Made by a program: the position numbers and the translations under genes. From contig CM069134.1 in the NCBI GenBank assembly GCA_035221665.1, forward strand, positions 32,240,001-32,304,000: a stretch of DNA of 64,000 nt, written 5' to 3'. The notes below the pieces were generated by a model. It saw only the letters and a list, made by a program, of their open reading frames with translations. It did not search any database and was not told the origin of the DNA. Each line of letters begins with the position of its first letter. The stretch's first letter is position 1. Positions 24,700 through 63,014 of this stretch are shown piece by piece. Origin of the DNA: Okamejei kenojei (taxonomy: Eukaryota).

Positions 24700-25310
24700 C
24701 AAATGTGCTGGAGAAACTCAGAGGGTGCAGCAGCATCTATGGAGCGAAGGAAATAGGCCAAAATCCTTCTTCAGACTGATGTAGGGTGGGGGGGTGAAGA
24801 AAGAAGAAAGGAAGAGGAGGAGCCAGAAGGCTGAGGGAGAGCTGAGAAGGGGAGGAGACAGCAAGGGCTACCGGAAATTGGAGGTCAATGTTTATGCCAC
24901 CAGGGTGCAAGCTGCCCAAGTGGAATATGAGGTGCTGCTCCTCCAATTTCCGTTGGTGCTCACTCTGGAGAAGGCCCAGGACATAAAGGTCGGATTCGGA
25001 ATGGGAGGGGGAGTTGAAGTGCTGAGCCACAGGGAGACCAAGTTGGTTAATGCAGCCCGAGCGGAGGTGTTCGGCGAAACGATTGCCAAGCCTTGGTCTC
25101 ACCGATGTAGATCAGCTGACATCTAGAGCAGAGGATGCAGTAGATGAGGTTGGAGGAGATGCAGGTGAACCTTTGTCGCACCTGGAACGACTGCTTGGGT
25201 CCTTGAATGGAGTCGAGGGGGGAGGTAAAGCGACAAGTGTAGCATCTCTTGCGGTTGCAGGGGAAAGTGCCTGGGGAGTGGGTGGTGCGGGAGGGAAGGG
25301 AAGAATTGAA
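24700..25310 (-). mobile_element. Penelope-like element fragment (GIY-YIG endonuclease region plus terminal repeat)
   Basis: RLGNRFAEHLRS..LPVAQHFNSPSH..DL.VLGL..RKLEEQHLIFHLGSLHPGGINID is the typical PLE GIY-YIG C-terminus. Confidence 0.85.
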
Positions 25311-27819
25311 CTGGTTAATGCAGCAAAAATAGACGCAAAATGTTGCAGTAATTCAGCAAGTCAGGCAGCATCTCTGGAGAAAAAGAATATGTGACGTTTC
25401 AGGTAGAGACCCTTCTTCAGATTGAACCGTTCTGGAGATGGGCTTTGACTCGAAACATCACGTATTCCTTTTCTCCAGAGATACTCACTGACCCGCTGAG
25501 TTATTCCAGCACTTTGTGTCTATCTTCAGTATACACCAGCATCGGAATGAACAAATTAATTAATTGATTGATTGATGCGTTTATTGGACTAGTATGTACA
25601 CATACAAGGAATTTGCCTTGGTGCTCTGCTCGCAAGTAACAACACGACATACAGTAGACAATTAATAATAAAACATTAAGAATAAAATATTATAGTTTAA
25701 ACATGGAATGAAATAAAATACCAGATCAAAAGGAGGCTATAGACTTATGGTTATTGAGTAAAGCTACTGCTCGTGGAAAAAAGCTCTTTTTATGTCTGGC
25801 TGTAGCGGCTTTGACAGGCCTTCTTTCACAGGTTAATGCAGCAAATGGATTTCATGCATATAAATCTGATGTTAAAAAGACGCAACCAATATTTTTCTAA
25901 CTGGTGAAAAACGGAGAAAGGGAGGTCTGACGACTTCCACATGGATCATTAACTCGACATGGATGCAAGAAAATATATCCAGAGGTCTCGTGTTATATCA
26001 CGAGAAGAATATAATCATAGTGGAGGTTTTGCTGCAGTGAAGATTAAAAGCAGCCGTTCTGGGCACCACACTGGAAAGGATCGAATGACCTTGAAAGGAA
26101 TGCATCTTAGATTGTCATCAATGATTACATCACAAGGTGGAATCACACAAACATTCCCTGGAGCTAAGAAAGTCGGATCAGAGTTTACAAAACATTGGAA
26201 CAGATCTTTCTCTAATCCACAAGCTGTTACTGACTGCCCTTGGGACCAAGCTAGAAGGAAGAGTATGGCTCAGGAGCAGTGTTCTATGGAGAGAACAGCA
26301 GGGAGCAGAGGGCAAGGCACAGTGCACAGCCTGGCCGATGGTAAGCATTTGCCTGTGCTTGTTCCAAGACTGGCTGCAATAAAGAATGCAAATCAGAGAC
26401 AGGAGAAAAATGTGGCAGCAGGAACAAATGATAATAAAGGAGAAAAAAAGGCCAACGGCTTCAATAGCTTTGTCTTTGTCCTTGATCAAAAAAATACGGT
26501 AGTAAGCTCGTGAAAAACAAAAGGGCTGCAGGAGCTTCCAGACTAATGTCAAAAGCATTAGAAAAAGGAGAACATGGGTTCTTTATGCATAGAAACAGGA
26601 GACCCTAATGAGAAAAAAAGCAAACTGACTGAATTAAACATGTCCTTGCTGTTTGTCTTTACTATAGATACAAAAAGCCTCTGAGATATAATAAAGAACT
26701 GAGGAAATAAAAGTATTGCATTTGAGAAGAAATTCTGCCTGAAGTTAATATCTAAATATTGAGAGGATCCTAGATATCAATAAGTCTATCACAGGTACTG
26801 ATCCCCTCACCATCAAATGGTCTAAAAGGCAGTCAATATCACCAAAGATCCACACCACCCTAGCCACGCTCTCATTCCACTTCTATCATTGTGAAGAAGA
26901 TACATGAGCATGAAAACCGTGATTACCAGGTTCAAGAACAGTTTCTTGGTTCAATTACCTTAGTTTATTGTCACGTGTACCGAGGTACTGTGAAAAGCTA
27001 ATCAGTCAGCGGAAAACCTATACATGATTACAATCGAGCCACCTACCACGTACAAATACATGATAAAGGGAATAACGCTCAGTGCACGATAATGTCCAGT
27101 AAAGTCCGATTAAAGGTAGTCCGAGGGTCACCAATGAGGTTGATAGTAGCTCAGGACTGCTCTCAAGTTGTTGATAGGTTGGTTCAGTTGCCTGACAACA
27201 GGGAAATTCTTCCCAGCAACCATCAGGCTCTTGAACACCTCACAACATTAACCTCAGCAACAATGATCTTTTACAGACATTATCTTTGGTTATACTATGG
27301 ACTTAAATTTTGCAGTATTATAGTCACCTAGTATTATGGTTAGTTATTTGTATTTTTGATTATTATATATTTATCTGTGTGTTATTGCACATGGGTCTGT
27401 TAAGCTACAGCAGGTAAAAATGTCATTGTTCCCTTGTAGTATGTAACAATGAAACGCTCTTGCCTACTGGACCTGATGATTTAAGTCTAATTTGAAAGAG
27501 GTGATAGTAGAGAAAATTAACACACGTTAACAACTTGCAAAGTTCTGCTGGTTCAGGAAATGGTTCGGGGCAGAGTGGAGCAAAAAGAAAAAGTGGCCAA
27601 ACTGTTTAATGAAGGAGAGAGAGAAAACACGGAATTACCTACTTGGTCTTGTATTGGTCACCTGGAAAACGTATAATGAAGAAAGAGATATCAAGACTGG
27701 ATTGAACAGAGTCAATGCAAATTTATTTAAAGCAGGGAGGGGCCTCTAAACTTTTCAGCATGAGGACCACATTTTATATTTGGCACATTTTTGTGGGCCG
27801 TAGGGAAAAAAAAGAAATG

Positions 27820-30450: not shown

Positions 30451-32029
30451 GCAGAGGCTTTATAAGATTTTAATTAAAACTGGCAACAATCTCATCTTTA
30501 ATCACTGATAGTGGAACTCATGCAAGCACTTGCAACATGAGACTAAATGCAACTGTCACTATTGAGGATTAATTGACCCAGATATGCTAGTCTTTCATGT
30601 GTTTGTGTGGGAGCTTGCTGAGAAATGAGAAATACTCCAAATCATCACACGTTGAATTGCCAGCCCAAGAGCAGATGAGGAATATCTTAGCTGAAAGAGT
30701 TACATAAACAACGGCCTAATCATTCATAATGTCGGTATGGAGTTTACACGTTCTCTCCGTGACCGCGTGGGTTTCCTCCGGGTGCTCCAGTTTCCTCCCA
30801 CCGTCCAAAGACACCTGGGATTGTAGGTTAGTTGGCCTCTGTAAATTGTTCAGAGTGTGTGGGGAGTGGGGTAGCAATGAACTAGTGCAAATGGGTGATC
30901 TATGGTCAGGCTGGACACGCTGGGCCACAGGGTCTGTTTCCATGCTGCATCTTCATGTCAATCAATATCTAGCCATTCCAGAGTTGTTAAGACAGATACA
31001 CTCTGTTGCTCTGGATCAAAATTAACTTCCCAGGCAATAACCAGGTGGTCATCAGTCTGACCTGCTCAGTTACTCCAGCTCTTTGTACCCTAGCAGGTGG
31101 TTTTCATCTCTTTCTAATAGTGGGTTGTCATTAGCTTAGAGATCGCGGCATCCTTTCTTAGATAACGTGTTCATGGTGTCCACACATCTTGAATTGTTGG
31201 GGTTTAGTCATCAATCATTAGAGCAGAGAACAGGCTCCAGTGGTATGCATAGTACCACAGTAGAAAGAAGACCAGGTGAGACCTGGCCCCATTGTATCAA
31301 TCAACAAACAGTAGATAAAATGTCACGGAAATGGGGGCTGCACAAAGAAAAAGTGTATACCATCAGTTCTCAGGAACATTTACCAACAAATAAATCGATC
31401 ACACACACTGCAGCTTCAACAGAAATGCAAAGCTATTTGATGAGGGGCAATTTTATCTAAAATTTGGAATGCACAGCCGAAGTGGGTGGTAGAGGCAGAG
31501 GCTCTCACGTCTAGATGGGCACATGTATTGCTAGGACATAGAAGTGACGGTAAATGGGATTGGTATAGATGGGTCAACAATCAGCATAGACAGGGTGGGC
31601 TGATCATCTGACTAAAATGGTACACATTTAAAGGTGGTGCAGGAAAAGGGATGAAGGCTGCACAATAATTTGAAGGCAGTAGAATAAAGAGTCACAGGTT
31701 AGCATAACTCCTTCGCTCTTTCATAAGAGCGAAGGAGTTATGCTAACCCTTATAAAATGACAGACCCTTCAGCGGTCAGTTTTGGCATCCTACATTAATA
31801 TGATCGAGGAGTACAAACCAGTTATCCAAATGGCACCATGATGAAAAATCATTTAATGTAACCGGCCTAAAGAATCAGTGCAGTTTCCTGAGAATAGAGA
31901 AGTTAAGATGAGATTTGAAGGAAGGGCTTCCTTCTGATAGAATAAACCAAGTGAAATAAATTTCCACTGGTTTAAGAGCTGATAGCTACGGGAACAGCTA
32001 CATGGCAAAAGGACACAAACTGAGCTGAA

Positions 32030-32640
32030 CAGCAGATGCAATAGATGAGGTTGGAGGAGGTGTGAGTGAACATCTGCCTCAACTAGATAGACTGTCGGGG
32101 TCCTTGGATGGAATCGAGGGGGGAGGTAAAGGGACAGGTGTTGCATCTCCTGTGGCTGCTGGGGAAAGTACCTGTTGAGGGGGCGGATTGGGTGGGAAAG
32201 GACGAGTTGACCAGGGTGTTGTGGAGGGAACGGTCTCTGTGGAAATCAGAAAGGGGTGGAGATGGGAAGATGTGACTAGTGGTGGGATTCCGTTGGAGGT
32301 GGCGAAAATGTTGGAGGATTATATGCTGTATGCGACGGCTGATGGTGTGGAAGACGAGGACAAGGGAGACTATGTCCTTGTAACGAATAGGAGGAACGGG
32401 AACAAGAGCGGAGCTGCGGGATATCGAGGAGACCCTAGTGAGAGCCTCATCTATAATGGCAGAGGGGAACCCCAGTTTCCTAAAGAATGAGGACATCTCC
32501 GATGACCTGGTATGGAAAACCTCATCCTGGGCGTAGATGCGATGTAGATGGAGGAATTGGGAGTTGGGGATAGACTCTTTACAGGAAACAGGGTGGGAAG
32601 AAGTGTAGTTTAGATAGCTATGGGAGTCAGTGGGTTTGTA
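32030..32640 (-). mobile_element. Penelope-like element fragment (RT thumb and Cys linker)
   Basis: MSSFFRKLGFPSAII..LVLVFH..FHRDRSLHNTLVNS..GTFP..RRCNTCPFTS; homologous to 25130-25300. Confidence 0.8.
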
Positions 32641-33543
32641 AATGTGTTCAGGGCTGCAAGGATACGGGGGAGTGGGAAGACTTTGCTTTGGTGAGGTTTA
32701 GCAGAATGCTGCCTGGATAGTGGGTCTCTGCTACAAGAAGTAGCTGGGTAGACTTGTAACATCAGGGGTTAAGGGGAGACTTGATAGAGGGCAGAGCTAT
32801 TAATTGAGAGGGGAGGGCGTTTATTGGAGATGTACTGGCAAGTTTTGTTTTTACACAGAGTAATGGGGGACTGCAGTGGTGCTGGGGCAGATTTGATTGT
32901 GGCATTTAAGGGGGTTTTAGATAGACACAAGTAAGTGCAGGGAATAGAGGGATATGGATGAGCAGGCAGGCGAGACCAGTTTAACTCAGCATCATGTTTG
33001 GCACAAACATTGTGGGCTGAGGGGCCCGTTCATGTACTGTTCGATGTTCTATGATTAGGCTACTCTTTGAATGAGACTGCATGGATATGAAGGACAGATA
33101 GGCATCCTTGCCGTATTATTCTACAGCTTAAAAATCGTTGACCCAGTGTGCTCAGGTTTCCATGTGTGGATAAGCTGAATGCTTGACCATTAACTGATCA
33201 CCTTTTGTCACCTCAACATTATAGCACCAGACCCTCAATAAAACCTGGCAGAGACGAGGTTCAATGTTTGTGTTTAGAAATGTGGCGTCATACAAGCCTT
33301 GCCATATTACGGCACTGATGCCAAATTTGGAACAGTCTCGGGCCTCACTGAAGCATGTTCACCACGGTGAATTTGGGCCGGAATTTTTTTTAACTCAATA
33401 TCCCAACAACATTATCGTGAAATCACAAGAAAACTTTAAATCATACAAATGTATGTTCATATTTGTGAATAATGCTCCAGTAAGGAGTTTTCAATTTACA
33501 ATCTGTTTTATTAGCTTAACAATTGAACATGCAACATACTTAC

Positions 33544-34046
33544 TTTGATGCTGCATAATAAAATGTACCAAACCATATGCTGGATGTCAACAAATGCACT
33601 GGGATCACGACTTTTCCGTACTGTTTGAATGTCTTTTGGAAACGCTGGAAGAGACCAATGGAATGGTCTTGGAGAGGATCCTTTTCTACATCTACCACCT
33701 CTGGGTTTACTTTTGTCTCGGAAAAGTATTTTTTTTGGACCGTGTCAGACAAGGTGTCTTGATCTGGGTCACTACTTGGTAAAAACTTGGGGTCTTCCGG
33801 CTTGGCGTCGTCTGACTTGGCTTTGGCAGTGTCCTTCTGGTCCGTGGTTGCTGATTCCACTTGGGATTCTGGCCTCCTCTGTTCTAACGCAGAAACTGAG
33901 CAGGATGTGTGTACGAGTTGTCCCGGGTGAGGGAGAAGAAACGGCGTCTTCCCACACGTGGCTAGAAATATGCGAGCGGCACAGTGTCGGACATTACAGA
34001 CTTGCTTCGTGTGCCAAAGAACATTTTGGAGGAAGTAGCTCTGCAT
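33544..34046 (-). CDS. FAM210A: FAM210A first coding exon (probable mitochondrial presequence plus start of DUF1279)
   Basis: ATG at 34046; ends DPLQDHSIGLFQRFQKTFKQYGKVVIPVHLLTSSIWFGTFYYAASK with donor aa|gtaagt at 33544/33543. The exon acceptor (ttcctcccccccccag) places the exon start at 34091. Confidence 0.93.
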
Positions 34047-35321
34047 TTTTAAGTTTCCAGTCTGATAACTGCTAGTCTAATAATGGAAGAACTGGGGGGG
34101 GAGGAAAAAAAAATCACGTGTTACAAAACATGTTCAGTCAGATTACTAATGGCTTTTCCAGTCACTGTACACTTGGTACTCCACTTTTCAGTAAAAACAT
34201 GCTTGAGGTTATATTTCATTTTCAACGTAGTAAAGCAAAACCTTTCAGCCTCTTCTACTTGAAGGAGATCGTGAACAGTCACATGGGTCTTTCAGTACTA
34301 CCAACATAATGAAGTTATAAATCATTAATAATGCTTGTAAAGAAAATGCCCTCTAATTTTATACTTACTTTCTGTCAATACAACCTTTAAGTCGAGGCAA
34401 GTGTTTAATTGTCTTATGTACCAAAAATGGAACAATGAAACTCTCACTTGCAGCAGCACAACAGGTCTGTAAACACAGTACTCTAAACACAATAAGACAA
34501 AAAAAGTTCAATAAATTTCAAAAAGGATGTCCAAATTTAACATCCAAATATACTGCCAATGAATTATCCTGAAGTGCGATCATTGTTTCATGGGAGATTG
34601 TGTCAGCCATTTATGCTTCACTTGGTCTCAAGTAGCAGCAATCAGTTCTTCCATTATTTTTAGATGATATTTCATCTGTGAGATTGAACTTCAGAGAATA
34701 TTTTCTCAACAATGCAGAAGTTCCTTTCAAATTGATCCACTTGACATGGTTAGCAAGGCAAGATTGATAATATGTAGGACTTGAGAGCCATTTACAAGAA
34801 ATATGTTCTACTTTAGCAAACTAGTACTTTTCAATCAAAAGTTGCCATGGATTTATTTTATACTCTGAACTTTTTTCTGTGGTTTATTCTGGGATTACAG
34901 AGTAATAATTTGACATATCTGTTGTGCAGCTGCAAGTATTTCATTGTTCCATTTCAGGAGACATGACAATAAACACACTTGACCTCTCTTTAATGCTATT
35001 TGTATCCATTTCAGCCTCACTCTGCTGTGTTGCCCTTATCTACACTTAGTTTCTTCTCTCAGATCTCCCTTTCCCCCCTCACCATTTCCCACCTTGCTTT
35101 TGACAGTTATTTGTAAGTTTGGGTGGATATATGGATAGGAATGGTTTATAGGGAAAGGAGCAAAATACAAGCAAATGTGACCGCCTCAGGTTGGCAACTT
35201 GGTTAGCATGGATGAGCTGGGTAGGCCTGTCTCTATGTTGCATAAATCTGACTCTAATTTCTCTTCATTTGGGAATTGTTACATTAAAATGGCTGATTAT
35301 GCAAGTAGAGTTATATAGCAC

Positions 35322-38165
35322 AAATAGACTATAGGTGCAGGAGTAGGCCATTCGGCTCTTCAAGCCAGCACCACCATTCAATGTGATCATGGCTGATCAT
35401 CCCCAATCAGTACCCCGTTCCTGCCTTCTCCCCATATCCCCTGACTCTGCTATCTTTAAGAGCCCTATCTAGCTCTCTCTTGAAAGTATCCAGAGAACCG
35501 GCCTCCACCACTATCGGAGGCAGATAATTCAACAGACTCACAACTCTCTGGTGATAAAGTGTTTCCTCATCTCCATTCTAAATGGCTTACCCCTTATTCT
35601 TAAACTGTGGCCCCTGGTACTGGACTCTCCCAACATCAGGAACATGTTTCCTGCCTCTAGCATGTCTAAACCCTTAATAATTCTATATGTTTCAATAAGA
35701 TTCCCTCTCATCCTTCTAACCTCCAGAGTATACAAGCCCAGCCACTCCATTCTCTCAGCATATGACAGACCCGCCATCCTGGGAATTAACCTTGTGAGCC
35801 TACGCTGCACTCCCTCAATAGCAAGAATGTCCTTCCTCAAATTAGGGGACCAAAACTGCACACAATACTCCAGGTGTGGTCTCACTAGGGCCCTGTACAA
35901 CTGCAGAAGGACTTATTTGCTCCTATACACAACTCCTCTTGTTGTGAAACCAGCATCCATCACTGCCTGCTGTACCTGCATGCTTACTTTCATTGGCTGA
36001 TGAACAAGGACCCCCAGATCCCCTTTTCACAACTTGACACCATTTAGATAATAATCTGCCTTCCTGTTTTTGCTACCAAAGTGGATAACCTCACATCTAC
36101 CCACATTTAACTGCATCTGCCATGCATCTGCCAACTCACCCTGCATTTTCATAGCATCCTCCTCACAGTTCACACTGCCACCCAGCTTTGTGTCATCTGC
36201 AAATTTGCTAATGTTACTTTGAATCCCTTCATCTAAATCATTGATGTAGATTGTAAATAGCTGCGGTCCCGGCACCGAGCCTTGCGGTACCCCACTAGTC
36301 ACTGCCTGCCATTCTGAAAGGGTCCCGTTAATCCTGTCGACCAACCAATTTTCTATCCATGTCAGCACTCTACCCCCAATACCATGTGCCCTAATTTTGC
36401 CCACTAATCTCCTATGTGGGACATTATCAAATGCTTTCTGAAAGTCCAGGTACACTACATCCATTGGCTCTCCCTTGTCTATTTTCCTAGTTACATCCTC
36501 AAAATATTCCAGAAGATGAGTCAAGCATGATTTCCCCATCGTAAATCCATACTGACTCGGACCAATCCTGTTACTGCTATCCAAATGTGCCGCTATTTCA
36601 CCTTTTATAATTGACTCCAGCATCTTCCCCACCACCGATGTCAGGCTAACTGGTCTGCAATTCCGTTTTCTCTCTCCTGCCTTCCTTAAAAAGTGGGATA
36701 ACATTAGGTACCCTCCAAGCCACCTGAATCTATAGAACATTGGAAAATGATCACCAATGCATCCACAATTTCTAGAGCCACTTCCTTAAGTACCCTGGGA
36801 TGCAGAACATCAGGCCCTGGGGATTTATCAGCCTTCAGTCCCATCTGTCTACCCAACACCATTTCCTGCCTAATTGGGATTTCCTTCAATTCCTCCGTCA
36901 CCTCAGATCCTCTGGCCACTAGTACATCAGGAAGATTGTTTGTGTCCTCCTTAGTGAAGACAGGTCCAAAGTACCTGTTCGACTCATCTGCCAGTTCCTT
37001 GTTCCCCATAATAAATTCACATTTTCAGTCTTCAAGGGTCCAACTTTGGTCTTAACTATTTTTTTTCCTCTTCACATACCCAACGAAGTTTTTACTGTCC
37101 TCCTTTATATTCTTGGCTAGCTTACCTTCGTACCTCATCTTTTCTCCCCATATTGCCTTTTTAGTTATCTTCTGTTGCTCTTTAAACATTACCCAATCCT
37201 CTGGCTTCCCGCTCATCTTTGCTATGTTGAACTTCTTCTCTTTTATTTTTATACTGTCCCTGACGTCCCTTGTCAGCCACGATCGCTCCTTACTCCCCTT
37301 GGAATCTTTCTTCCGCTTTGGAATGAACTGATCCTGCACCTTGTGTATTATTCCCAGAAATACCTGCCATTGTTGTTCCACTGTCATCCCTGCTTATGTA
37401 TCTTTACAGTCAACTTTGGCCAGCTCCTCCCTCATGGCTCCATAGTCCACTTTGTTCAACTGTAACACTGACACCACCGATTTACCTTTCTCCCTCTCCA
37501 ATTGTAGAATAAAACTTACCATATTATGGTCACTACCTCTTAATGGATCCTTAACCTCAAGTTCCCTTATCAAATCCGGTTCATTACACAACACTAAATC
37601 CAGAATTGCCTGCTCCCTGGTAGGCTCCAATACAAGCTGCTCTAAGAATCCATCACAGAGGCACTCCACAAACTCCAGTACCAACCTAATTTAGTTGGGA
37701 TCCAGTACCAACCTAATTTTCCCAGTCTACCTGCATGTTGAAATCTCCCATAACAACCGTAGCATTACCTTTACGACATGCCAATTTTAACTCTTGATTC
37801 AACTGGCACTCTATATCCAGGCTACTGTTGGGGGCCTGTAGATAAGTCCCATTAGGGTCTTTTTACCCTTACAATTCCTTAGTTCAATCAATACTGACTC
37901 CACATCTCCTGTTTCAATGTCACCCCTTGCAAGGGACTGAATATCATTCCTCACCAACAGCTACACCATCCCCTCTGCCCACCTGTCTGTCTTTTCGATA
38001 GGAAGTATATCCGTGCGTATTCAGTTCCCAGCCCATGCCCTCTTGCAGCCATGTCTCTGTAATTTCCACAACATCATACTTGCCAATTTCTAACTGAGCC
38101 TCAAGCTCGTCCACTTTATTTCTTATACTTCGCACATTCATATACAACACTTTGACTTCGGTATT
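35322..38165 (-). mobile_element. CR1-clade LINE, near-complete but degraded ORF2 (APE endonuclease plus RT) with 3' tail
   Basis: Fragments KVLYMNVRSIRNK..DVVEITETWL, AILDLVL, GSDHN, KSPGPD..HPRVLKE, YLDFQKAFD, GVPQGSV.GP.LF.IYINDL, KFADDTKL and LVRPHLEYCVQFWSP are spread over several broken frames. Confidence 0.93.
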
Positions 38166-40034
38166 CACCTCAAAAACAGGCCATTTGGCCAAACTTGCCC
38201 ATCATGACCAGTCTACAGTAGTTCCACCAGCCCTCTAAACTGATCCGTATATCTGTTCTAATGCCTTTTAAATGTTGTTATATTAAATCACTAAAATAAT
38301 CACTATGCTATTTAAGGAAGATATGAGAGGTAATCTAGAGTATCTAGAAACATGCCTTATCAGGAAATTCATACAACCAGCAATTTAAGGATACAGTGGT
38401 AGGACACTGAATATTTTCAGCTGACCAGACAATACAAGCATGACAAGACAGTACAAGTATGACAGTAAAACATCAGACAAGTTCAACAAACTTGAATTAT
38501 TTTTTTGAAGAATGGATGTTTTGTAGATATTATTGATATGCATTCCAGAAAGGATGTGAAAGTTCTTCAAGTAAACCACAGTTAAAAAGCACATATTGAG
38601 GCACATTACTGAGTTGCTTAAGAACTTGATTAGTAACAGGAGAGTGAGATTAGGAATAATGGCCAGGTATTCAAACTACAGGACTCAAGGTGTCCTCCAA
38701 GGATATATGTTTGGACATTAATTATTCTCCTTAATAACAACCAACTTAGACAATAGGTTATAAAGTCATATCTTCGGGTTTGGCAATTCCAATTGGTAAG
38801 CAGCATTTTTTGTAGTTTATTTGGAAGAATTAGGTTATAAACAAATATTAATAAAGTGAAATTGCTGCTGGCAGTTTAAACTAACCTACAGTCAAAGCTG
38901 CAATTTAACAACGGAGGTATTTTTATCTGCAGATATATATGTGAGCCTGACCACATGAGTTGAGCCAAACAGATGATGTGTATCATGTTCAGTTCAAGCT
39001 GGGTAGTTCTTGTTCAAAAGATTTGGCTAAGGTCAGGTCTGCCTGGGCTCATTCACACCAGGACAATGTGCTTCATATTATTGCATGTGACATCTGCTCT
39101 AGATCAAAAGCAATTGATATGCAGCACAGCAAGGACCTGCTTTCTATTTTCCCTGCAAATGTCTCTGGGTCAGGTCATATTTGGAAAAGGCCAGGGTTCA
39201 GGTTTGGATTGGTTGCAAGCCAATTTCAGATTGAATTTTAATTTTACATCCAGACAATTTGTGTCTCCAGTCTTAATTGCCAGAGAGAGAACATTTAAGT
39301 TTATACAATCTTTTTTTCTTAAACTTCTTATCGTCTCACTTAATTTAATGCTCCTTTTGTCCTCCATTTCTCTTTCTCTACCCACTTTGGTTTTAATGGT
39401 TGTAATTAATTTCCTTCTATCACTCTGGTTTAATTCTAAATTCTGAAATCTCATCAGAAGACATGTTTCCTTTGTACACCAACATCCTAGTTATCATTTA
39501 TCTTTGTCTGAATTCAATTTCCAGCAAATTGCAGTATCCCCCCCCCCCCCCCCACCACCACCAAGCTGAAGTTTTGGGGCAAGGTATGTAAAATTCTGGC
39601 AAGGCCAGTGATTAGATGCCGTGCGCAAGTTAATCCGAGGCAACTTTAAACAAGTCTGTACATCACATGGAATTTTGACATTTTTGCCCTATTCTTGCTT
39701 TTACGACACTTTGCAAACCTCCTTCCACACCATTATATTTAATGCCGTCCATGCAATCTTCTAATCCTTAATAAGCAGAACCCAAAAACCTATCGGAGAA
39801 TCCAAACACGAATAACATGATGTTGTACCTGAAAGTACCACAGGTCGTGTATAAAGTATTTATTTGAAGAGCAGCAGAATGTCTAGTCAGCTAGCAATTG
39901 GGGAAAACAGAAGATTTATGCCAGCTTTCTGAAGAGCTGCCTTTCAAATTAGCAAGATAAAGAACAAAGCAGATATTTCCTGTACCAAACAAGTACAACA
40001 TCTATGCTGAAACTCAGGTACCGCTGTCCGCTGT

Positions 40035-40135: not shown

Positions 40136-41282
40136 ATAGTGCAATAGATATCTTTTTGGGTATTGTGAGATTATGAAAGATGTACGGTAAAGGCATATCT
40201 TACTTTCATTTGCCATTTCTTTTGGAAGGTTAAGGTCATCCAAAAGTGTGTTGTGTTCAAGCTCAGTTACCTTACCACTGTGTTTTTTATAGCAAAGGGT
40301 ATATCATCGATAGTGCTGAGCATTTGTCTCATATTTGGTTTTCAATCTTATGGATTTGATGCCCATCCAAACTTAGACATTACATTTCTTGGGATTGTAA
40401 GAGGGCCAAACTTATTTTTTTTAAAGTTACTTGAAGGCAGTCTCAGATCAGATAGATTATTAATCACAGGATTATCAATCCTTGAACTGGATAATTAGAG
40501 ATGCTTTGTCACAGATCTAATTATCCACATCTTTAATTATCCATGCTGAGTCATTTTTAGAGCACAATGAAGCATTTTCTGCATTGCATAATAAGCTGCA
40601 CCCTACCCAGAATTGGCAAGGCTGCCAGATATGTGTTAAAGAAAAGTACTTCAATTTTTGTCTGGGCAGGCCGCAGCCTGCTGAACTGGATCTTGAATTC
40701 TCCAACTTCAGATAACTTGCTCTGTCGTGTTGGCATCAGTACTGGCCATTCATGCTTTCCTTTCCTCTCTTCCACCCCCACCCCTTTATTTTGGACTTTT
40801 GGGCAGACCCAATAGACCAGTCCTGTATTATCAGCCAGACTTAACATTAGCAGTATTTTATATACACAAAAAAAGTTACCTGTCAAATCATTTTCCCTTA
40901 TTACAAAACACAATGCTGGAGGATCTCAAAATTGTTAGATCTCATAGTGCATTGCTAAAGATTCCAGTTTCTTGTGTGTACACATTACCTTTCCCACCTT
41001 CTCTGACATTTAAGCAAAATATAGATCAGTAGTCAAAAGAAGAATCCTGACCCAAAACATCATGTCCACAAAAGCTGCCTGACCCACTGAGTCCTTCAGC
41101 ACTTTGTGTTTTGCTCAGCATCTGCAGTGTCTCCATTCTATAGTTAGGCTACATTACTTTCTCTTATTTTTTTAGGTTTCATTGAATGAGGGGCTTCGAG
41201 CTGGAAGTTCAGTCTGCTTTGCCTTCCGCAGATACACACAAGAAGTTGAAGAGGTAGCATCCATCCCTGGAGAAAAGGAATA

Positions 41283-41315
41283 GGTGACGTTTCGGGTCGA
41301 GACCCTTCTTCAGAC
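41283..41315 (-). ncRNA. Candidate minimal type I hammerhead ribozyme core in a Penelope-type repeat
   Basis: The minus strand reads GU-CUGAAGA-A-GGGUCUCGACCC-GAAAC-GUC-ACC: a CUGANGA box, a stem II hairpin, a GAAA box and a GUC cleavage triplet. Confidence 0.6.
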
Positions 41316-41539
41316 AGAGGCAGGAGAGAGGGAAACGAGAACCTTCCACAGAGTCTGCCCGGCCTGCCGAGCTTTTCCTAGCATTCTCTGTTATGATCTC
41401 AGATCTTCCTCGCAGCAAGACACGAGGGACCCACATGGGCTGGAGTAACCTGGCACGTTTCATGTCCACAGTCACTCTGACTTGCATCCCATTCAATTCA
41501 CACTTTTCTGTAACTTGGCAGGGTGGGAGTGTGAATGAA

Positions 41540-42110
41540 GGCCGGCCAGGGGTTATTGGGCTGCGGCTCCTCGCCAGCCTCGCTCCCCTTTAAAAGCCCT
41601 TCAGAGCCCGAGGCCTTCCTCGGCCCCTCCCTCCCTCCCTCCCTCCGGGCGCTGTGAGCGGCACTCGGGGCCCGGCTCGGGCTAATCTGCTCTCCTCTTC
41701 CCCCACCGTCATCAGCCGCTCATTAAACCCAGCTCACCTTCCCACCAAACGTTTCTTTTTATTTTTGTGATTTCCCTCAACCGCCTGCTCATCCGCTCCT
41801 CGCCCAGATGGCGATCGCTGGCAGCCACGCATGCGCCGACATGAGGCCGTGGGGCACTCTGGGTGCTGTAGTCTCGCCGCGAGGCCCCGCGCCGCCGGAC
41901 CTGTGACCGTAAGTACTACAAATCCCAGGGTGCGCCGCGCCGCGCCGGCAACTGCGCATGCGACCGAAGAGGGAACACAGGGCGATGTAGTCCCCAGGGT
42001 GGGTGACTCAGTGAGTGCCGCGACCGTGCGGACTACAAATCCCAGGGCTCACCGCTCCCGGCTCATCCCAGGCCCGCCCGCCCTCCTGTCTTGTTGCCTG
42101 GGTGGGTACA
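41540..42110. promoter_or_regulatory. CpG-island promoter of FAM210A with ZNF143, NRF1 and YY1-like motifs
   Basis: Three ACTACAnnnCCCAG motifs (41854-41872 reverse, 41915-41933, 42032-42047); CGCATGCG NRF1-like sites (41827-41836, 41953-41962); CAGATGGCG YY1-like site (41805-41813). Confidence 0.8.
41738..41830 (-). other. FAM210A: Probable non-coding first exon of FAM210A
   Basis: Minus-strand donor aag|gtgagct at 41738/41737 lies inside a GC/CpG-rich island, directly downstream of the promoter motifs. The 5' end is approximate. Confidence 0.6.
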
Positions 42111-43334
42111 CGTGTTTAGCAGAGAGCAAAGATCTTTGGTAGAGAGCAAAGATCCTATAGCAAGGCTCTGCTAAAGGATCTTTGGTAGAGAGGGTGATGT
42201 ATCAATAATCAAGGTAGACAAAAGTGCTGGAGAAACTCAGCGGATGAGGCAGCATCTATGGAGCGAAGGAAATAGGCAACGTTTCGAGCCCGAAACCCTT
42301 CTTCAGATCAATAATCCAGTGTTTTAGCTCCGTAACCCTTGCTTTCCCCCTCTCTCCATCCCTCCGCCATCCTAGTTCTCCGACCAGTTTGACTGTCCTT
42401 TTTTAATTTTACATTAGCTTCCACTAGCTAACAACGATCTATTCTAGATTTTCTTTGAACCCACTTCCCCTTTGACCTTTCGTTTTTACATCTTACCCTT
42501 CCATATCTCTCTTTTACCTCTCCCCTGACTCTCGGTCTGAAGAACGGTTTCGACATGAAACGTCACCCATTCCTTCGATTCAGAGATGCTGCCTGTCCCG
42601 CTGAGTTACTCCAGCATTTTATGTCTAACTTTGGTGTTTTATAGTCAGTGATATGCGAATTACCATACAGCCATACGAAAAAAAACTACTACATAAAAGT
42701 TAACATAAACATCCACCACAGCGGATTCCCCACATTCTTCACTGTGATGGAAGGCAAAAAAGGCCAATCTTCTTCTTTATATGTAATGCTAATCGATTTC
42801 ACATAAAAATAATTAGAAAAAGGTCCACTCCTCTCCTCAACCTAAAAGTACCTTATTTTTAATTTAGAGATTCAGCAATTACCCAATTCTGATGAAGTCT
42901 CTTGATTGAATCATCAACTCAGTTTCTCTCTCCACAGATGTTGCCTGACCTGTTGAGTGTTCACTCATTTTCCTATTTTATTTCAGATTGCTGGCATTTG
43001 TAGTATATGTAATTTTCACATCTTGGAAATATCCTGCAGTTTCAGGGGATACAATTGAAGGAAAAATTGATTAACTCTTCAAATAACATCCTATTCTAGA
43101 AGTTGAACATAGCAGATGTATCTGACTGCTGCACATTTTAGTTTATTACTTTTAGAGATACAGCACCCTTCGGCCCACCGAGACCACGCCAACCATCAAG
43201 TCGTCAAGTCAAGAAAGTTTATTATCATGTGTCCCAGACAGGACAATGAAATTCTTGCTTGCTGCAGCACTACAGAATATTGTAAGCATAAATACAGAAC
43301 CGTTCAGTTTAGACCATCGATCACGCGTACACTA

Positions 43335-44739: not shown

Positions 44740-45570
44740 TTTTTATTTTATTTATTTATTAAATTTTATTTTGGATTCAAGGTCCAGACAAGGGACAACA
44801 TTACATAAAATCCATTGCCTATAAAAACACCATAAAATATAAAATCTTAGTAAATCACTTATAAAAACATCATAAATTATATACAAAAAACACAATACAT
44901 GATTTAAAATCCAGAATTAAAAAGAAAGATCAGTGTCCTACAACGAGACAGTGATACCAGTGTCTCCACAACTGGGATTCGTAGCGTGTAGTGCTAAACC
45001 TTATGTTTGACAAGGCCACGATACATATGATTTCTTAGATTAGCTTCTAAAGTATTGACTCCTGCAACCACAAACATGTTACTAGCACTACACCCTCTAG
45101 GTTTCCTTAGCAGTGTTCTCATGGCATCATTATAGGCCACCTTTAGTCTCTGCAAACTTGTCTTTCCGTAGTTTGACCACAGGTGCGCAGTATAGAGTGG
45201 CGTGCAATATGCTCTAAACAGTGACATCTTCACCACATCTGTACATGCACCAAACTTACGCAAGAGAATATTCGCCTGTACATACAGCATACGTCCTTGC
45301 CTATAAATATCCTCATCATCTGTCATTTGTTCTGTAATAAAATGCCAAAAATATTTTACCTTATTACAGACACTAAGATTATTGTCAGACAATTTAAAAT
45401 CAGGAAATTTTAAACATTTATCCTTTTTGGTTCTACAGATCATAACAGCACTCTTACAGGCATTATATTTAATATCATGTTCCACACCATACACAGAACA
45501 TATAATTAGGAGCTGCTGGAGACCAGCGCTAGATGGACTAAAGACCACAAGATCATCTGCATACATAAAT
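44740..45570 (-). mobile_element. Non-LTR retrotransposon 3' fragment, not the resident CR1 family (L2/Daphne-like group, clade uncertain)
   Basis: Open 190-aa frame YADDLVVFSPSSAGLQQLL...LFRAYCTPLY...LKVAYNDAMR; A-rich tail at 44740-44770; inserted into a CR1 3' end. Confidence 0.8.
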
Positions 45571-47439
45571 GGTTCACTAAATGAACAGTGCAGGCATCAG
45601 GTTCGGCACAGACATTTGGACTGAAGAGTCTGTTCCTGTGCTGTACAGTTCCATGTTCTATGTTCTATTTAGATTTACAGCTTCCGTAGTATTTTTTCAA
45701 GAGTGTTTAATTGTCATATGTGCCGGCCACAAAGCAATGAAATTCCTACTAGCTGCAGCTTAACATGCCCATTTTTGTAACAGAAAAAATAATCTTTTTA
45801 CTATCTTCACTAGTTTCTGTTCCACTGCCCTTTGCAACTTAAAAAAAAACCTCTAACGATTTCCTGTTCTGATTAAAGGCAATTGATCTTCACTCTTCAC
45901 TCAGAGGGTGGTGGGTGTATGGAATGAGCTGCCAAAGGAGGTAGTTGAGGCAGGTACAATAACAATATTTTTGAAAGGCACTGGGATAGGTACATAAATA
46001 GGAAAGGTTCAGAAAGATATGGACAAAATGCGTCAAATGGAACTAATTTAGATGAAGCATCTTGGTCAGCATACATGTTGGGCCAGAGGGTCTGTTTCCG
46101 TGCTGACTGACTCTATGACTCTCTATCCGAAACATTAAATCTGTTTCCCTCTCCAAAGATGTTGCTGCCTGTCTCCATTTGCTACTTTTAGCTTGTCCTT
46201 TCTCAATTTTCACTATTTGCGGGGTGGGGGGTGGGGGGAGGGATGTTCACTAGCAAAGGCAGCATTGATTACCCATTTCTTCTTGAAATCTAGTAGAATG
46301 GTCCTATAGTTTAGGTTTAGATTTATTATTGTCACATGTGCTGAGGTGTAATGAAAAACGTTGTTTTGCATGCCTATCCAAACAGATCAGATAAACCATA
46401 CATAGATGCAATCAGTTCAAAAGTATAATAGATAGAGCAAGGGGAGAGATACAGAGTGCAGAATATTGTTCTCAGCATTGTAACACATCGGTTCCATAGA
46501 TAGTCTGAAGAAGGGTCTCGACTCGAATAGTCACCCATTCCTTCTCTCCAGAGATGTTGCCTGTCCTGCTGAGTTACTCCAGCTTTTTGTGTCTATCTTC
46601 AATTCCATGTATAAAATCCAATGTCGTCAATGAGCTGGAGATGAATCGGACAGAACCCTAACTTATGGAAGTACCGTTCAGAAGGCTAATAATATAAGGG
46701 AAGAAGTTATTCCTGAGTTATTTCAAGCTTTTGTACCTTTTGGCCCCGATGTCATTCTTGCCAAGAATGAGAAAAGTGGTTCATTCCTTCTGTTAAGTGA
46801 ATGAGTAGACAGGATAATCTGGCACTGCTATGATTTATGTGGAAACTATGTCAAAGTCTATGAAGGGGTCCAGGAGTTTGGAGGAAATCAATTGTTTTCA
46901 AGGTTATATGGCAGTTTGTCTTTTTTTGTTCTTTGTGTTAATCTATGTGCGGCACTGAATACCTTGCAATCCCAAAGAAAGGTTCATTTTCTTTACTCCA
47001 ACGTTGTCAAAGATTGCTAGCACACCTCATGTGGTGTTGCTGGATAAACTGGAAGGTTTTCTCCTGACGTAACAGGGAAACCTGTTGTATTATAGCAGCT
47101 GTTCAATTCCCCATGCAGCTACAGTGATGATCATAGACAATATCATCTGTGATTCTGGTTCAGTCACTTGTGAATTTGTGGCACGTAGCACAATCTAATT
47201 GACAAATTCAAACTGTGGGGAGCAGGGAAGTTTGCGATAGATTTTAAAGGCACTGAAGGAAATGACAGTAAAGTAGAGAGCCATTAGAAGATGCTATGGT
47301 AGTTTGCATAAACATCCTTTTGATTGGAGAGAGACACTGAAGCCCTGCAAATGTTTGTGTGAGCTGCCTTTCCTAGAACTCTTTTCATACATCCAGGATT
47401 CTTGTTGCATTATTTTGGAGTGTAGCTAAGTACAGATCC

Positions 47440-50119: not shown

Positions 50120-50330
50120 GAACTGCAGATGCGGGTTTATACCGAAGATAAACACAAAAAGCTGGAGTAACTCAGCGGGTCAGACAGCATCTCTGGAGAA
50201 AAGGAATAGGTGACGTTTCGGGTCGAGACCTTTCTTCAGACTGAAGAAGATTCTGAAGAAGGGTCTTGCCCGAAACGTCACCTATTCCTTTGCTCCAGAG
50301 ATGCTGTCTGACCCGCTGAGTTACTCCATA
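50120..50330. repeat. Palindromic pair of Penelope-type terminal repeats (one of more than 15 copies in the window)
   Basis: gctggagtaactcagcgggtcagacagcatctctggag...ggtgacgtttcggg and its reverse complement, head to head. Other copies lie near 2615-2765, 9310-9470, 17465-17555, 18180-18285, 25330-25525, 41265-41315, 42215-42630, 46500-46600, 49910-50005, 50905-51370 and 55165. Confidence 0.85.
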
Positions 50331-50882: not shown

Positions 50883-52102
50883 TAATAAAGAAACCATTGC
50901 TTGAATAGACACAAAATACTGGAGTAACTCAACAGGACAGGCAGCATATCTGGATGGGTGACGTTTCAGGTCGAGACCCTTCTTCAGACAGAGAGTCGGG
51001 TGAGAGGGAGACACAGAGATAAAGATTACAAGATGTGAAAACGAGACATTCAAGGGGATGAAGTTCAAGGAAAATGTAGAATATATAATCGTTAGCGAAG
51101 GAAAGGTGACAACGAAGTATAAATGTAATTAAGGCGACAGTCAGACCAGTCTGTGGGATTGATAGTTCTCTCTCCAGTCTGACTGTCCCCTTGATTACAT
51201 TTTTATCTTTGTATGCTTTGTTGTCACCTTCACCTAACTAACAATGAGCTATGACCTGTATTCTTCAGCTACGTCTAAAGAAGGGCCTTGAACCGAAACG
51301 TCACCCATTCCTTCTCTCCAGAGATGCTGCCTGTCCCCGCTGAGTTACTCCAGCATTTTGTGTCTATCTTCAATGTAAACCAGTATCTGCAGTTCCTACC
51401 TACACATTGGTTGAATAGATATGGTGGGCCTAAAGGACTATTTCTGTGCTATACAACTCCAAGACTGCATGTTAATATTCCAGGGTGAATTAATAAACTT
51501 GAATTTGACAGCTTATAGAATAACAATATTTCCCAAGGGGTTCGATAACACAATCAATTTTTATTGAATGGGAAACTTCATTAACGGTGGAGTATGTATG
51601 TACTTCGTTGCCAATTCCAATCTTATATGATTCTCCATTTAATCTGGTTTCCCCGAGCTCTGCACATGCAGCCGATGAACGGTGAATCCATTCAGGACAT
51701 TTCCTTTTTATTTCCCTCCCCGAGGAGCAGCATGTTCCATTTCACGGCGAAGGGTCCGTGGTGATATTTTGCAAAAATGTAAAATGCAATGAAACAACAG
51801 AAAATTCAGATCCGTCCGAGAAACTGCGGGCATCGGGTATTTTAAAAATGAGAATTAAAAAAGGCGTTTAGTTTTTTTTTGCATTACCATCAGTAATCAT
51901 TTCTGGGTCTGTAGTAAATTGGTAGAGGAGCAGACGCTGAGGAGCTTTGCAGCACCAGTGAACAGATTTCAGTTGCAGCCGCGCCGTGCTGGAAGGTAGC
52001 TGGGAGTTTGGCTTCAGAGGCAAGAACGGAGTCAGAGCTCCTGCCAGCTCACAAGCTGGGATATTGCTGGAGCGCGATCGCATTCAAGTGCGCACTCGAA
52101 GA

Positions 52103-52287
52103 ATGGAAAATGCAAACAGAGGCACAAAATGGTGTTCCTTGCTCCTGTGGATTATATACCTCTTGCTCCTGACAGAAGCGAAGAAAGCGGTGAAGTGCCC
52201 CGCGGGATGCACTTGTTCGAAGGACAATGCTTTGTGTGAAAATAGAAAATCCATTCCTCACAGTTTCCCGCCTGGCGTAGTTTCATT
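52103..52287 (+). CDS. LGI1: LGI1-like (leucine-rich glioma-inactivated family) coding exon 1: signal peptide plus LRRNT; orthology to LGI1 uncertain
   Basis: [62 protein letters not shown] resembles LGI1 [44 protein letters not shown]; donor gtaagt at 52288. Confidence 0.85.
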
Positions 52288-52599
52288 GTAAGTACTGTCT
52301 CAGTGGTGTGAAATGTGATTGTTATTTAACAGTAATGGAAACGCCTTGAGATGCTCGTTATATAAATGGTGCATTGTCACTGTCGGGCAGGAAAGGGATA
52401 CTTAGATACAACCATCTCTACCTATGTTAGTTACATCTTTGTCAAGCACCGGCTAAAAATAGACTATTGCGATTACAGATATACAACTGACAGATAATTA
52501 GATACAGTAGTCAAAAGGAAATGCGTCCATTTGTCAACATTGCCTATCGATTGAAGCACTGATCATTCTTGTGTCTTAACGGATTTAATTTATTTACAG

Positions 52600-61583: not shown

Positions 61584-61790
61584 TACTTCGGAGTCACGTG
61601 AGTGACTACGTGAAGACCCCGCCAGCACGCATGCGCGACATATCGTCGAATGCATTGCGGAAGCGACAGTCGGGAGGAGCGTCGCTCCTCCAGCGTAAGT
61701 TTAAAAAACAAGCGGAGGTAAGTACTTACCATTCTGGTAGAGTTCATGACGACTCTGTGTGGTGTGTTTTTACAGGGAAAGAACAGCACC

Positions 61791-63014
61791 ATGGAGTCCA
61801 GGAAATCACGGAGAGCAGCGGCAAAAATCACTGCTGTGGAAAGCAGCCAGCAGCGTGCCGACTCTCCAGAGCTGCAGGTACTTCCAGCAGCCCCCGACTT
61901 CTCGCCGCAACAGACCGCAGGTGCGCCGCGGTCCGCCGGCAAAACCACCCGGAAGTCGGACAGGTCCGTTGACTCGGCTGGGTCCGGACCTGAGGACACC
62001 CCGTTCGCTGATAGCGACGGCGGCCGTCTTACCCGCATGGAGCGGATGGTGGAGCAATTGCTCCAGCGTGACCTGCTTTTGCAGGGGCAGAGTCACAATG
62101 GGTCTCTTTGCAGACCCACGGCAGCATCCTATCAAGGACTGCCAAATGTCTCACCCTCTTCGCAGGGGAGCATTAGGGGTCAGAGCTGGGCTGACCCTGA
62201 AGAAGGGGACATGGCTGAAGACTCACCTGTGTCAGGGGTGCCGCAAGAAAAATTATTGGGTATGGTCAACAAATTCGCTATGCCTACCCAAAAAGGGCTG
62301 CCATTGCATCCTAAGCTGGCAGCCAGTATAAATTACATGGCAACAAACCAGCTGCAGGAACAAGCAATTAACAATATGGCAGATAAATACCTTGCGCCAG
62401 AGAATTGTATTTCTCTTAATGTGCCCGCTGTCAACAACCCCATTTGGGGCAACATGGGCCCAACCATAAGGAGCCAGGAGGTGAAACTCCAAAGAATCCT
62501 CAAGCTACTGGCTGCTGGGATGACAGCAGTAGCCAGAGCAGTTGATGGGGTTGAGATGCCTGAAGAGCTGCAAGACGCTCTAGCACTCCTGTGCAATACA
62601 CTATTTGAAATTAACAGCTACAGGAAGAGCATCATAAAGCCTGCACTCAATCCCAAATTTGCGGGATTATGCAGGCCCAGCAGTGCACAGCCGCCAACAT
62701 TGCTGTTTGGGGACAACCTACCTAAGCAGGTTAAAGACCTGGATGAGGAGGCCAAGGCAATCGGCATGATTAAGGTGCCGAACACCTCCAAAACCCCATA
62801 TCAGCGGCGGCAGCAATCCTACACATCCACCAGGCACCGTTACAACGAGAGACCATCTGGTGATGAAAGCTCAAAGGCCGGCCCACCTGCACAACGGTCT
62901 TTTTTAGACAATGGCCCAGCCCGGTCTTCTTGGAAAATGCGCCATCCACACACCGCAGCAACACAACAGAACAAGAAGCAAGGACAGAGACAACCAACAC
63001 AGCACCGCCGGTAA
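61791..63014 (+). CDS. DIRS ORF1 (gag-like), uninterrupted
   Basis: The open frame runs 61746-63014, with a strong Kozak cACCATGG at 61791. Motifs KYLAPENC..L.VP.VN..IW and LLFGDNL are like DIRS ORF1 proteins. Confidence 0.7.
   Translation: MESRKSRRAAAKITAVESSQQRADSPELQVLPAAPDFSPQQTAGAPRSAGKTTRKSDRSVDSAGSGPEDTPFADSDGGRLTRMERMVEQLLQRDLLLQGQSHNGSLCRPTAASYQGLPNVSPSSQGSIRGQSWADPEEGDMAEDSPVSGVPQEKLLGMVNKFAMPTQKGLPLHPKLAASINYMATNQLQEQAINNMADKYLAPENCISLNVPAVNNPIWGNMGPTIRSQEVKLQRILKLLAAGMTAVARAVDGVEMPEELQDALALLCNTLFEINSYRKSIIKPALNPKFAGLCRPSSAQPPTLLFGDNLPKQVKDLDEEAKAIGMIKVPNTSKTPYQRRQQSYTSTRHRYNERPSGDESSKAGPPAQRSFLDNGPARSSWKMRHPHTAATQQNKKQGQRQPTQHRR

What the first reader, a model, noticed from the sequence alone, without database searches (positions are those of the whole stretch)
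41283..41315. Minimal hammerhead ribozyme core in the abundant Penelope-type repeat; one intact copy is sense within FAM210A intron 1
Seen: one of the commonest short repeats here carries CTGAAGA-A-GGGTCTCGACCC-GAAAC-GTC-ACC. It is intact on the minus strand at 41283-41315, with variants at about 9380, 17525, 18195, 25392, 42535, 46503, 49915, 50209, 50253, 50957 and 55165. Established: CUGANGA, stem II, GAAA and a GUC triplet form the hammerhead core, and Penelope-like elements are known to carry minimal type I hammerheads with a vestigial palindromic stem III (here ACGU) proposed to work as dimers. The repeat also borders a PLE GIY-YIG fragment at 24700-25310. Inference: this genome is seeded with ribozyme-bearing PLE derivatives, including in host pre-mRNAs. 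Caveats: there is an extra A after CUGAAGA and stem I is very short.
Basis: partly seen in the sequence, partly recalled or inferred. Interest (0 to 1): 0.72.

Follow-up and report, generated by a model that had tools for sequence, protein, structure and literature searches.

The report
Penelope retroelement stub with minimal hammerhead
This is one of very many short leftover ends of a known kind of jumping gene that carries a stripped-down self-cutting RNA motif; this copy lies in the front part of a fish gene's transcript, where it is predicted to be folded shut and likely idle.

Summary
The motif is real and fits the published minimal hammerhead (min-HHR) of Penelope-like elements (PLEs); the 'extra A' is part of that consensus. 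The same 28-nt core sits in both terminal repeats of an intact 1,197-aa RT plus GIY-YIG element in this genome. The copy is a 109-nt stub between 11-nt target-site duplications; 14,101 exact 30-mers exist genome-wide. Across subfamily consensuses the core is unchanged (0 of 11 positions against 21 of 59). Inserted copies decay neutrally (8.3% against 8.8%) and show no intron strand bias (intact: 32 sense, 32 antisense). No 5' ends pile up at the cut site. Locus twist: contigs of probable RNA runs show two FAM210A 5' forms; in one the stub is intronic, in the other an alternative exon reaches into the motif. An antisense stub 230 nt downstream is predicted to pair with the motif and block its fold. 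Verdict: known kind, likely inert here. The scan noted this family before, in this and other genomes.

The parts
41233..41341 (-). The whole insertion: a 109-nt 5'-truncated stub of a PLE pseudo-LTR, with a deletion in its 3' half
   Evidence: 85% identity over 73 nt to the pLTR of the intact element L062; alignment A1; bounded by the duplication below
41284..41315 (-). Minimal type I hammerhead motif: stem I 5' strand 41315-41314, CUGAAGA 41313-41307, extra A 41306, stem II 41305-41294 (4 bp, CUCG loop), GAAA 41293-41290, palindrome ACGU 41290-41287, C17 41286, stem I 3' strand 41285-41284; predicted cut between 41286 and 41285
   Evidence: Sequence; descriptor; published consensus
41342..41352 (.). 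Target-site duplication, 5' copy (11 nt, one mismatch to the other copy)
41222..41232 (.). Target-site duplication, 3' copy
41025..41111 (+). Decayed second stub of the same repeat, antisense to FAM210A; 41032-41062 is predicted to pair with the hammerhead motif in the RNA
   Evidence: Profile hit; pairing probabilities 0.75-1.0 at 29 of the 31 positions 41315-41285
40989..41291 (-). Alternative FAM210A 5' exon (donor after 40989), reaching at least to 41291; its 5' end is not known
   Evidence: Joint 40989-34091 with GT-AG ends in contigs of runs X2 and X4; X4 record 24 covers 40989-41291; donor sequence; unique in the genome apart from its repeat part
41738..41822 (-). FAM210A exon 1a (non-coding, in the CpG island); with this exon the stub is intronic
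   Evidence: Joint 41738-34091 in contigs of X1 and X3; donor and CpG profile
33543..34091 (-). FAM210A exon 2, start codon at 34046
   Evidence: PF06916, E=7e-09, 36.5 bits over a cut-off of 26; contig cover
24702..25309 (-). Frameshifted PLE fragment (zinc-finger linker and GIY-YIG endonuclease) with its own 3' repeat at 24702-24783, whose hammerhead core is deleted
25330..25522 (.). Head-to-head inverted pair of stubs (25330-25434 minus, 25424-25522 plus) just upstream of the fragment; likely a separate insertion

Best explanation
The 33-nt motif is a minimal type I hammerhead motif carried in the terminal repeat of an endonuclease-bearing Penelope-like retroelement, and the copy at 41233-41341 is a truncated, neutrally decaying stub that likely does not cut FAM210A RNA. 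Shown: identity with the repeat of an intact element, the target-site duplication, abundance, core conservation between subfamilies, neutral decay of copies, no strand bias. Inferred: in the parent element the motif likely cuts only as a dimer or with help from the element's own protein; stubs were likely copied from uncut RNA, often ending near the first letters of the motif, which may be where the element's RNA starts; in FAM210A transcripts the motif is predicted to pair with an antisense stub 230 nt downstream.
For: Same 28-nt core in both pLTRs of L061 and L062, around a 1,197-aa frame with RVT_1 (E=5e-06) and GIY-YIG (E=0.004) hits, both under the Pfam cut-offs. 94 of 104 endonuclease C-terminal hits are followed by the repeat within 450 nt on the same strand. 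Strict descriptor: 63 hits in 1.464 Mb against 0 in each of 4 controls. Core 0 of 11 positions change among 8 subfamily consensuses, against 21 of 59 downstream (p=0.027). An older family with a U7 core pairs stem I differently (U at -2 in 22 of 32, A at +2 in 24 of 32, counted by hand; G and C in the main families). Copy decay 385 of 4,651 core letters against 1,614 of 18,263 in the 3' block (p=0.23); 280 sense and 283 antisense copies, intact 32 and 32. 7 of 582 copies begin at the cut site, like neighbouring columns; 0 of 57 TSD-defined ends do, and 21 of 57 lie at -6 to +5. Hammerhead fold is not favoured as monomer or dimer; stem II probability 0.000 in the 353-nt context. Published min-HHRs are inactive as monomers and weak as dimers; the anole PLE ribozyme needs the PLE protein and is not needed for insertion in vitro.
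Against: No cleavage assay. The strand test has limited power for intact copies (sense share 37-63%) and rests on gene strands inferred from Pfam exon clusters. Core conservation against the 3' block alone is not significant (0 of 11 against 10 of 42, p=0.10), so the whole module, not only the ribozyme, is conserved. Only one family-level two-sided change was seen, in stem I, and it can also be read as a one-pair insertion; no two-sided change in stem II. The predicted cut site is transcribed about 230 nt before the blocking stub, so co-transcriptional cleavage could precede pairing. Energy models ignore tertiary contacts and proteins.
Confidence: 0.8

Rival explanations
1. The stub has been drawn into FAM210A as an alternative promoter or first exon, and the ribozyme at the 5' end of that mRNA form would cut off the cap when the PLE protein or a second copy is present.
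For: Spliced alternative exon reaching 41291 in contigs of 2 of 4 runs. TSD-defined stub ends cluster at the front of the motif (21 of 57), where the main families read TCAGTC, like the initiator consensus (recalled). D. virilis Penelope has an internal promoter.
Against: The exon's 5' end is unknown; acceptor-like sites at 41308 and 41305 would split the core if it is a cassette exon. The X4 contig runs 6 nt past the predicted cut, which points weakly to uncut RNA. The motif is predicted to be sequestered. This copy reads TCTGTC at the initiator-like site. The exon would add up to nine upstream AUGs. All four runs are from one study and are only guessed to be RNA.
Confidence: 0.06
2. Intact sense copies cut host pre-mRNAs at a low rate across the genome and shape intron processing or transcript levels.
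For: About 120,000-140,000 core-intact copies by extrapolation; nearby copies or abundant PLE RNA could supply a dimer partner.
Against: No strand bias and equal intact fractions (32 of 173 sense, 32 of 192 antisense, p=0.68); neutral decay, with G12 lost at CpG rates; 8 of 9 Xenopus dimers did not cut in vitro.
Confidence: 0.08
3. The motif is kept in the parent elements for another reason (internal promoter, RT recognition or a splice acceptor) and is a catalytically dead relic even there.
For: The 3' block is nearly as conserved as the core; stem I is only 2 bp and the young element's favoured fold is a different hairpin; insertion in vitro does not need cleavage in the anole PLE; no insertion starts at the cut site.
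Against: All consensus changes inside the motif fall on free positions, keep pairing or are CpG-type changes in old families; the older family keeps stem I with other letters; core mutants abolish, and a double mutant partly restores, cleavage in the anole element.
Confidence: 0.2
4. Chance resemblance of a repeat to the hammerhead core.
For: Rfam gives no hammerhead hit; folding z-scores are unremarkable.
Against: Full match to the published consensus at the published place, the pLTR; 63 against 0 descriptor hits, though these hits descend from a few parent elements.
Confidence: 0.02

Closest known systems
Minimal hammerheads (min-HHR) in pLTRs of metazoan PLEs (Cervera and De la Pena 2014, PMC4209133; main text parts 1-2 of 4 and supplement parts 1-2 of 3 read)
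   Same: Type I layout, CUGANGAH with an extra base, G10.1-C11.1, GAAA, palindromic 15.2-16.2, NUH, location in both pLTRs, most copies dispersed and single, some in close opposite-strand pairs.
   Different: Short stems (I: 2 bp; II: 4 bp with a YNCG loop, against 4-5 and 7-8 bp in Schistosoma); copy number far above the 4,000-9,000 given for coelacanth and Xenopus; no cartilaginous fish in Table S1 or Figure S3 as read.
Neptune or Nematis clade of endonuclease-bearing PLEs (Craig et al., 10.1101/2021.04.23.441226; passages read)
   Same: RT, then a Cys-rich zinc-finger linker, then a C-terminal GIY-YIG domain; partial tandem pLTRs; inverted 5'-truncated copies.
   Different: Clade not tested with a tree.
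PAc Poseidon element of the green anole (PMC11167929; passages and section 3 part 2 read)
   Same: pLTR hammerhead; signs that uncut RNA is the template.
   Different: There the ORF starts inside the ribozyme; here the open frame begins about 125 nt after C3. Protein-assisted cleavage is shown there, untested here.
Non-LTR retrozymes (10.64898/2026.07.22.740005; parts 1 and 3 of 5 and passages read; supplements closed)
   Same: PLE-derived type I hammerheads; one chondrichthyan was among the genomes positive for them.
   Different: Retrozymes are tandem arrays; here 34 of 690 copies have a same-strand neighbour, 318 are in inverted pairs and 338 are solo, and I see no strand bias in introns (intron against intergenic density, which that paper tested, was not tested here).

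Membership tests
PLE min-HHR | Core CUGANGA, GAAA and NUH in type I order | tested here: met
PLE min-HHR | [quoted passage not shown] | tested here: met
   A at 41306; A in 92% of aligned copies; listed as a feature
PLE min-HHR | G10.1-C11.1 and a paired stem II | tested here: met
   4 bp; one subfamily has U-G at the last pair; no two-sided change seen
PLE min-HHR | Palindromic vestigial helix III | tested here: met
   ACGU
PLE min-HHR | Helix I | tested here: met
   2 bp; U-A or U-G at the first pair among subfamilies; 3 bp with other letters in the older family
PLE min-HHR | Located in pLTRs of a PLE | tested here: met
PLE min-HHR | Self-cleavage as a dimer or with protein | not testable with these tools
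   No assay; energy models disfavour the fold
Canonical hammerhead (Rfam models) | Match to an Rfam hammerhead model; stable helix III; loop 1-loop 2 contact | tested here: not met
   No hit up to E=5; no helix III stem in a monomer
Endonuclease-bearing PLE (Neptune or Nematis) | Single ORF with RT and C-terminal GIY-YIG | tested here: met
   1,197 aa, RVT_1 and GIY-YIG hits below the curated cut-offs
Endonuclease-bearing PLE (Neptune or Nematis) | Zinc-finger linker between RT and endonuclease | tested here: met
   Cx4Cx2C motif seen in the translation; diagnostic
Endonuclease-bearing PLE (Neptune or Nematis) | Placement in the RT tree | not tested
   No reference set fetched
Non-LTR retrozyme | Tandem units each with a complete hammerhead | tested here: not met
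   Focal copy is a solo insertion with its own TSD; same-strand neighbours are rare
Host-exapted intronic hammerhead (as in amniotes; recalled) | Conservation of the single copy across species | not tested
   No relatives' genomes held; the copy has a deletion and substitutions in its 3' half

The most novel reading that the evidence does not exclude
The PLE stub supplies the start of an alternative FAM210A mRNA, so that a hammerhead sits at the 5' end of a host message, held shut by an antisense stub in the same exon and opened only by the PLE protein: a host transcript that senses retroelement activity. More widely, the PLE RNA would begin at the first letters of its ribozyme, and a million stubs would be candidate promoters.
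Probability: 0.05. Interest if true: 0.65.

Novelty: new member of a known kind. Interest (0 to 1): 0.22.

Why it matters
As it stands it extends a known motif to a cartilaginous-fish PLE lineage that is still young (copies 98% identical, intact ORF) and shows, on a sample, that about 10^5 intact-looking cores sit in both orientations in introns without visible cost. That supports the view that min-HHRs need the element's protein or a partner. The intact element L062 offers a ready substrate for testing protein-assisted cleavage. The FAM210A alternative exon would matter only if it starts in the stub and is cut.

Tried and rejected
Rfam scan: no hammerhead family. Folding z-scores of four short stretches: nothing above shuffles. 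Pile-up of insertion 5' ends at the cut site as fossil evidence of cleavage: not found. Strand bias in introns: not found. Extra conservation of the core in inserted copies: not found. Upstream consensus per subfamily was muddied by inverted partners and was not used. The U7 pattern search returned mostly mutated copies of the main families; rows found with a core pattern were not used as evidence of core conservation. No RNA holder listed on record; runs X1-X4 are guessed RNA, two flagged 'probably DNA', although their contigs are spliced. Lack of contig cover at 41527-41737 was not used. The 5' end of the alternative exon and its presence in related species stay open. Sequence look-up in earlier findings gave nothing. 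Searches for a printed description in cartilaginous fish listed none beyond the 2026 preprint; these were listings only, apart from that preprint. Loci chosen by motif or ORF (L001-L040, L061-L080, L201-L230) were left out of all density, decay and strand counts.

Full report
Observation. The motif is at 41283-41315 on the minus strand. The 25-mer has 11 matches within 3 mismatches in the window and none in 100 shuffles. The exact 30-mer occurs 14,101 times in the 2.76-Gb genome (7,089 plus 7,012; reversed control 0). That the host is a cartilaginous fish is my recall of this repeat and a statement in earlier notes; I did not test it.

Fit to the known motif. Cervera and De la Pena (PMC4209133; main text parts 1-2 of 4, supplement parts 1-2 of 3) give the consensus NNN CUGANGAH GNNNNN..NNNNNC GAAAN palindrome NUH NNN and list the extra base after position 9, the G10.1-C11.1 pair and the palindromic 15.2-16.2 as recurrent features. 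The focal copy has all of them. Its stem I is 2 bp, as in their Culex and D. virilis rows. Stem II is 4 bp with a CUCG loop. Rfam gives no hammerhead hit; I expect that for a motif without helix III (my inference).

Origin. A protein search of the genome led to intact elements. L061 and L062 hold a 1,197-aa frame with RT and GIY-YIG hits, both under the Pfam cut-offs, are 98% identical to each other, and carry the same 28-nt core in both pLTRs. The Cys-rich linker points to the Neptune or Nematis clade; no tree was built. Of 104 endonuclease C-terminal hits with room downstream, 94 are followed by the repeat within 450 nt on the same strand (this set includes loci chosen for their ORF and a few double hits). 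The focal copy is 85% identical to the pLTR over 73 nt, spans 41233-41341, has a deletion in its 3' half and lies between 11-nt duplications with one mismatch. It is a self-contained retro-insertion. The fragment at 24822-25309 is a frameshifted PLE piece; its own 3' repeat has lost part of the core.

Abundance and selection. In 1.464 Mb not chosen by motif (window, 200 kb beside it, 1.2 Mb inside nine large genes) there are 690 copies, about 1.3 million genome-wide by extrapolation from this non-random sample. A strict descriptor finds 63 hits against 0 in three Markov controls and one reversed control; by alignment 74 of the 449 copies that cover the motif are intact. A mixture model on 555 of the 690 copies gives subfamilies 4-26% diverged from their consensus. 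Among 8 consensuses 0 of 11 core positions change, against 11 of 17 in the spacer behind the motif and 10 of 42 in the 3' block (p=0.027 pooled, 0.001 and 0.10 apart). Changes inside the motif fall on the loop, H17, the first stem I pair (U-A or U-G) and CpG-type sites in old families; N7 was T in the oldest family's printed consensus. An older family (32 hits) has U at -2 in 22 and A at +2 in 24, counted by hand, where the main families have G and C; these letters were not fixed by the pattern. This is one family-level event and may be a one-pair insertion. So parent elements conserve the motif, together with the 3' block. Inserted copies do not: core non-CpG letters differ in 385 of 4,651 cells, the 3' block in 1,614 of 18,263 (p=0.23), and G12 is lost at a CpG-like rate.

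Effect on host pre-mRNA. Gene strands were inferred from clusters of CUB and spectrin-repeat exons. Inside these genes 280 copies are sense and 283 antisense; intact copies are 32 and 32; intact fractions 32 of 173 and 32 of 192. The interval for the intact sense share is 37-63%, so only strong depletion is excluded.

Fossil ends. If cut RNA were the template, insertions should begin at the cut site. 7 of 582 copies do, like neighbouring columns. Following a lead from earlier notes, I defined 5' ends by TSDs: 57 of 256 solo copies gave one (11 of 256 in the shuffled control); none begins at the cut site and 21 begin between -6 and +5 relative to C3, against 0 of 11 controls (positions good to 1-2 nt). 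This fits copying of uncut RNA, as reported for the anole element. A transcription start there is an inference: the letters resemble the initiator consensus (recalled) and D. virilis Penelope has an internal promoter (PMC2377424, passages), but RT stalling or fold-back at the TCAG-T-CTGA near-palindrome are alternatives. 318 of 690 copies are in inverted pairs, mostly head to head (138 of 199 close pairs), with both arms of one subfamily in 56 of 77 (17% expected), the known inverted truncation of PLEs.

FAM210A. The domain lies at 33540-34073 on the minus strand. Contigs of four coded runs from one study, guessed to be RNA, show two GT-AG joints into exon 2: from 41738 (X1, X3) and from 40989 (X2, X4); one X4 contig covers 40989-41291. 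So the stub is intronic in one form and at least partly exonic in the other. The contig ends where the repeat begins to be shared, so the exon's 5' end is unknown; it passes the predicted cut by 6 nt, a weak hint of uncut RNA. Acceptor-like sites lie at 41514, 41308, 41305 and 41267, and the exon, taken from 41341, would add nine upstream AUGs. A decayed antisense stub at 41025-41111 is predicted to pair with the motif: mean pairing 0.89, stem II probability 0.000 (whole fold z=-2.6). Without it, the hammerhead fold is still not the favoured one as monomer (-3.7 against -6.1 kcal/mol) or dimer (-5.7 against -21.9).

Known behaviour. A Schistosoma min-HHR did not cut as a monomer and cut weakly as a dimer or trimer; 8 of 9 Xenopus dimers did not cut; the anole ribozyme cut only with the PLE protein and was not needed for insertion.

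Verdict. A real min-HHR motif of a known kind, in a host group not listed in the 2014 tables as read; the 2026 preprint sampled one chondrichthyan, and its supplements were closed. The scan has noted this family before: 397 findings hold my search words and 49 in this genome mention hammerheads. The new local detail is the alternative FAM210A exon and the predicted antisense lock. Interest 0.22.

Noticed in passing
window 40989-41291 (-): Alternative FAM210A 5' exon built largely from two PLE stubs in opposite orientation, predicted to form a duplex of about 30 bp; one X4 contig differs by T>C at 41220 (A>G on the transcribed strand) and a 7-nt insertion at 41126, which may be alleles or editing.
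   Followed up: partly
window 41313-41320 and family-wide: The main families read TCAGTCTGA in front of and into the core: an initiator-like word (recalled), a near-palindrome at which several inverted pairs fold back, and a CAG after a pyrimidine tract that resembles a splice acceptor.
   Followed up: partly
window 50149-50330, 25330-25522, 9290-9470, 2613-2764: Head-to-head inverted stub pairs; the first scores as a microRNA hairpin in Rfam (MIR2118, 47 bits, below the gathering score of 85), a false match.
   Followed up: partly
window 32027-32640 (-): Second PLE coding fragment (end of the RT and linker), 78% identical to L062.
   Followed up: partly
L061, L062, L069: Young, near-identical PLE copies in partial tandem; L061 and L062 have intact 1,197-codon frames whose N-terminal half is long and proline-rich. 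The lineage may still be active.
   Followed up: partly
window 42882-42958 (+); hits: An older repeat family with a U7 core, a 13-nt stem II region and a 3-bp stem I.
   Followed up: partly
window 4466-4756 (+): Frame resembling the C-terminal exon of PTPN2 (recalled; Pfam gave only a weak unrelated hit).
   Followed up: no
window 51962-52291 (+): Frame resembling the signal peptide and N-terminal cysteine cap of an LGI-family protein (recalled; no Pfam hit). No RNMT exon was recognised head to head with FAM210A, though I did not search for one.
   Followed up: no
window 61722-63014 (+): 430-codon open frame without a Pfam hit; a similar stretch is in L069, so likely a retroelement ORF1 of DIRS type (recalled).
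   Followed up: no
window 35311-38200 (-), 8277-9167, 44994-45596: LINE-type reverse transcriptase fragments (RVT_1 hits), the first inside FAM210A intron 1.
   Followed up: no
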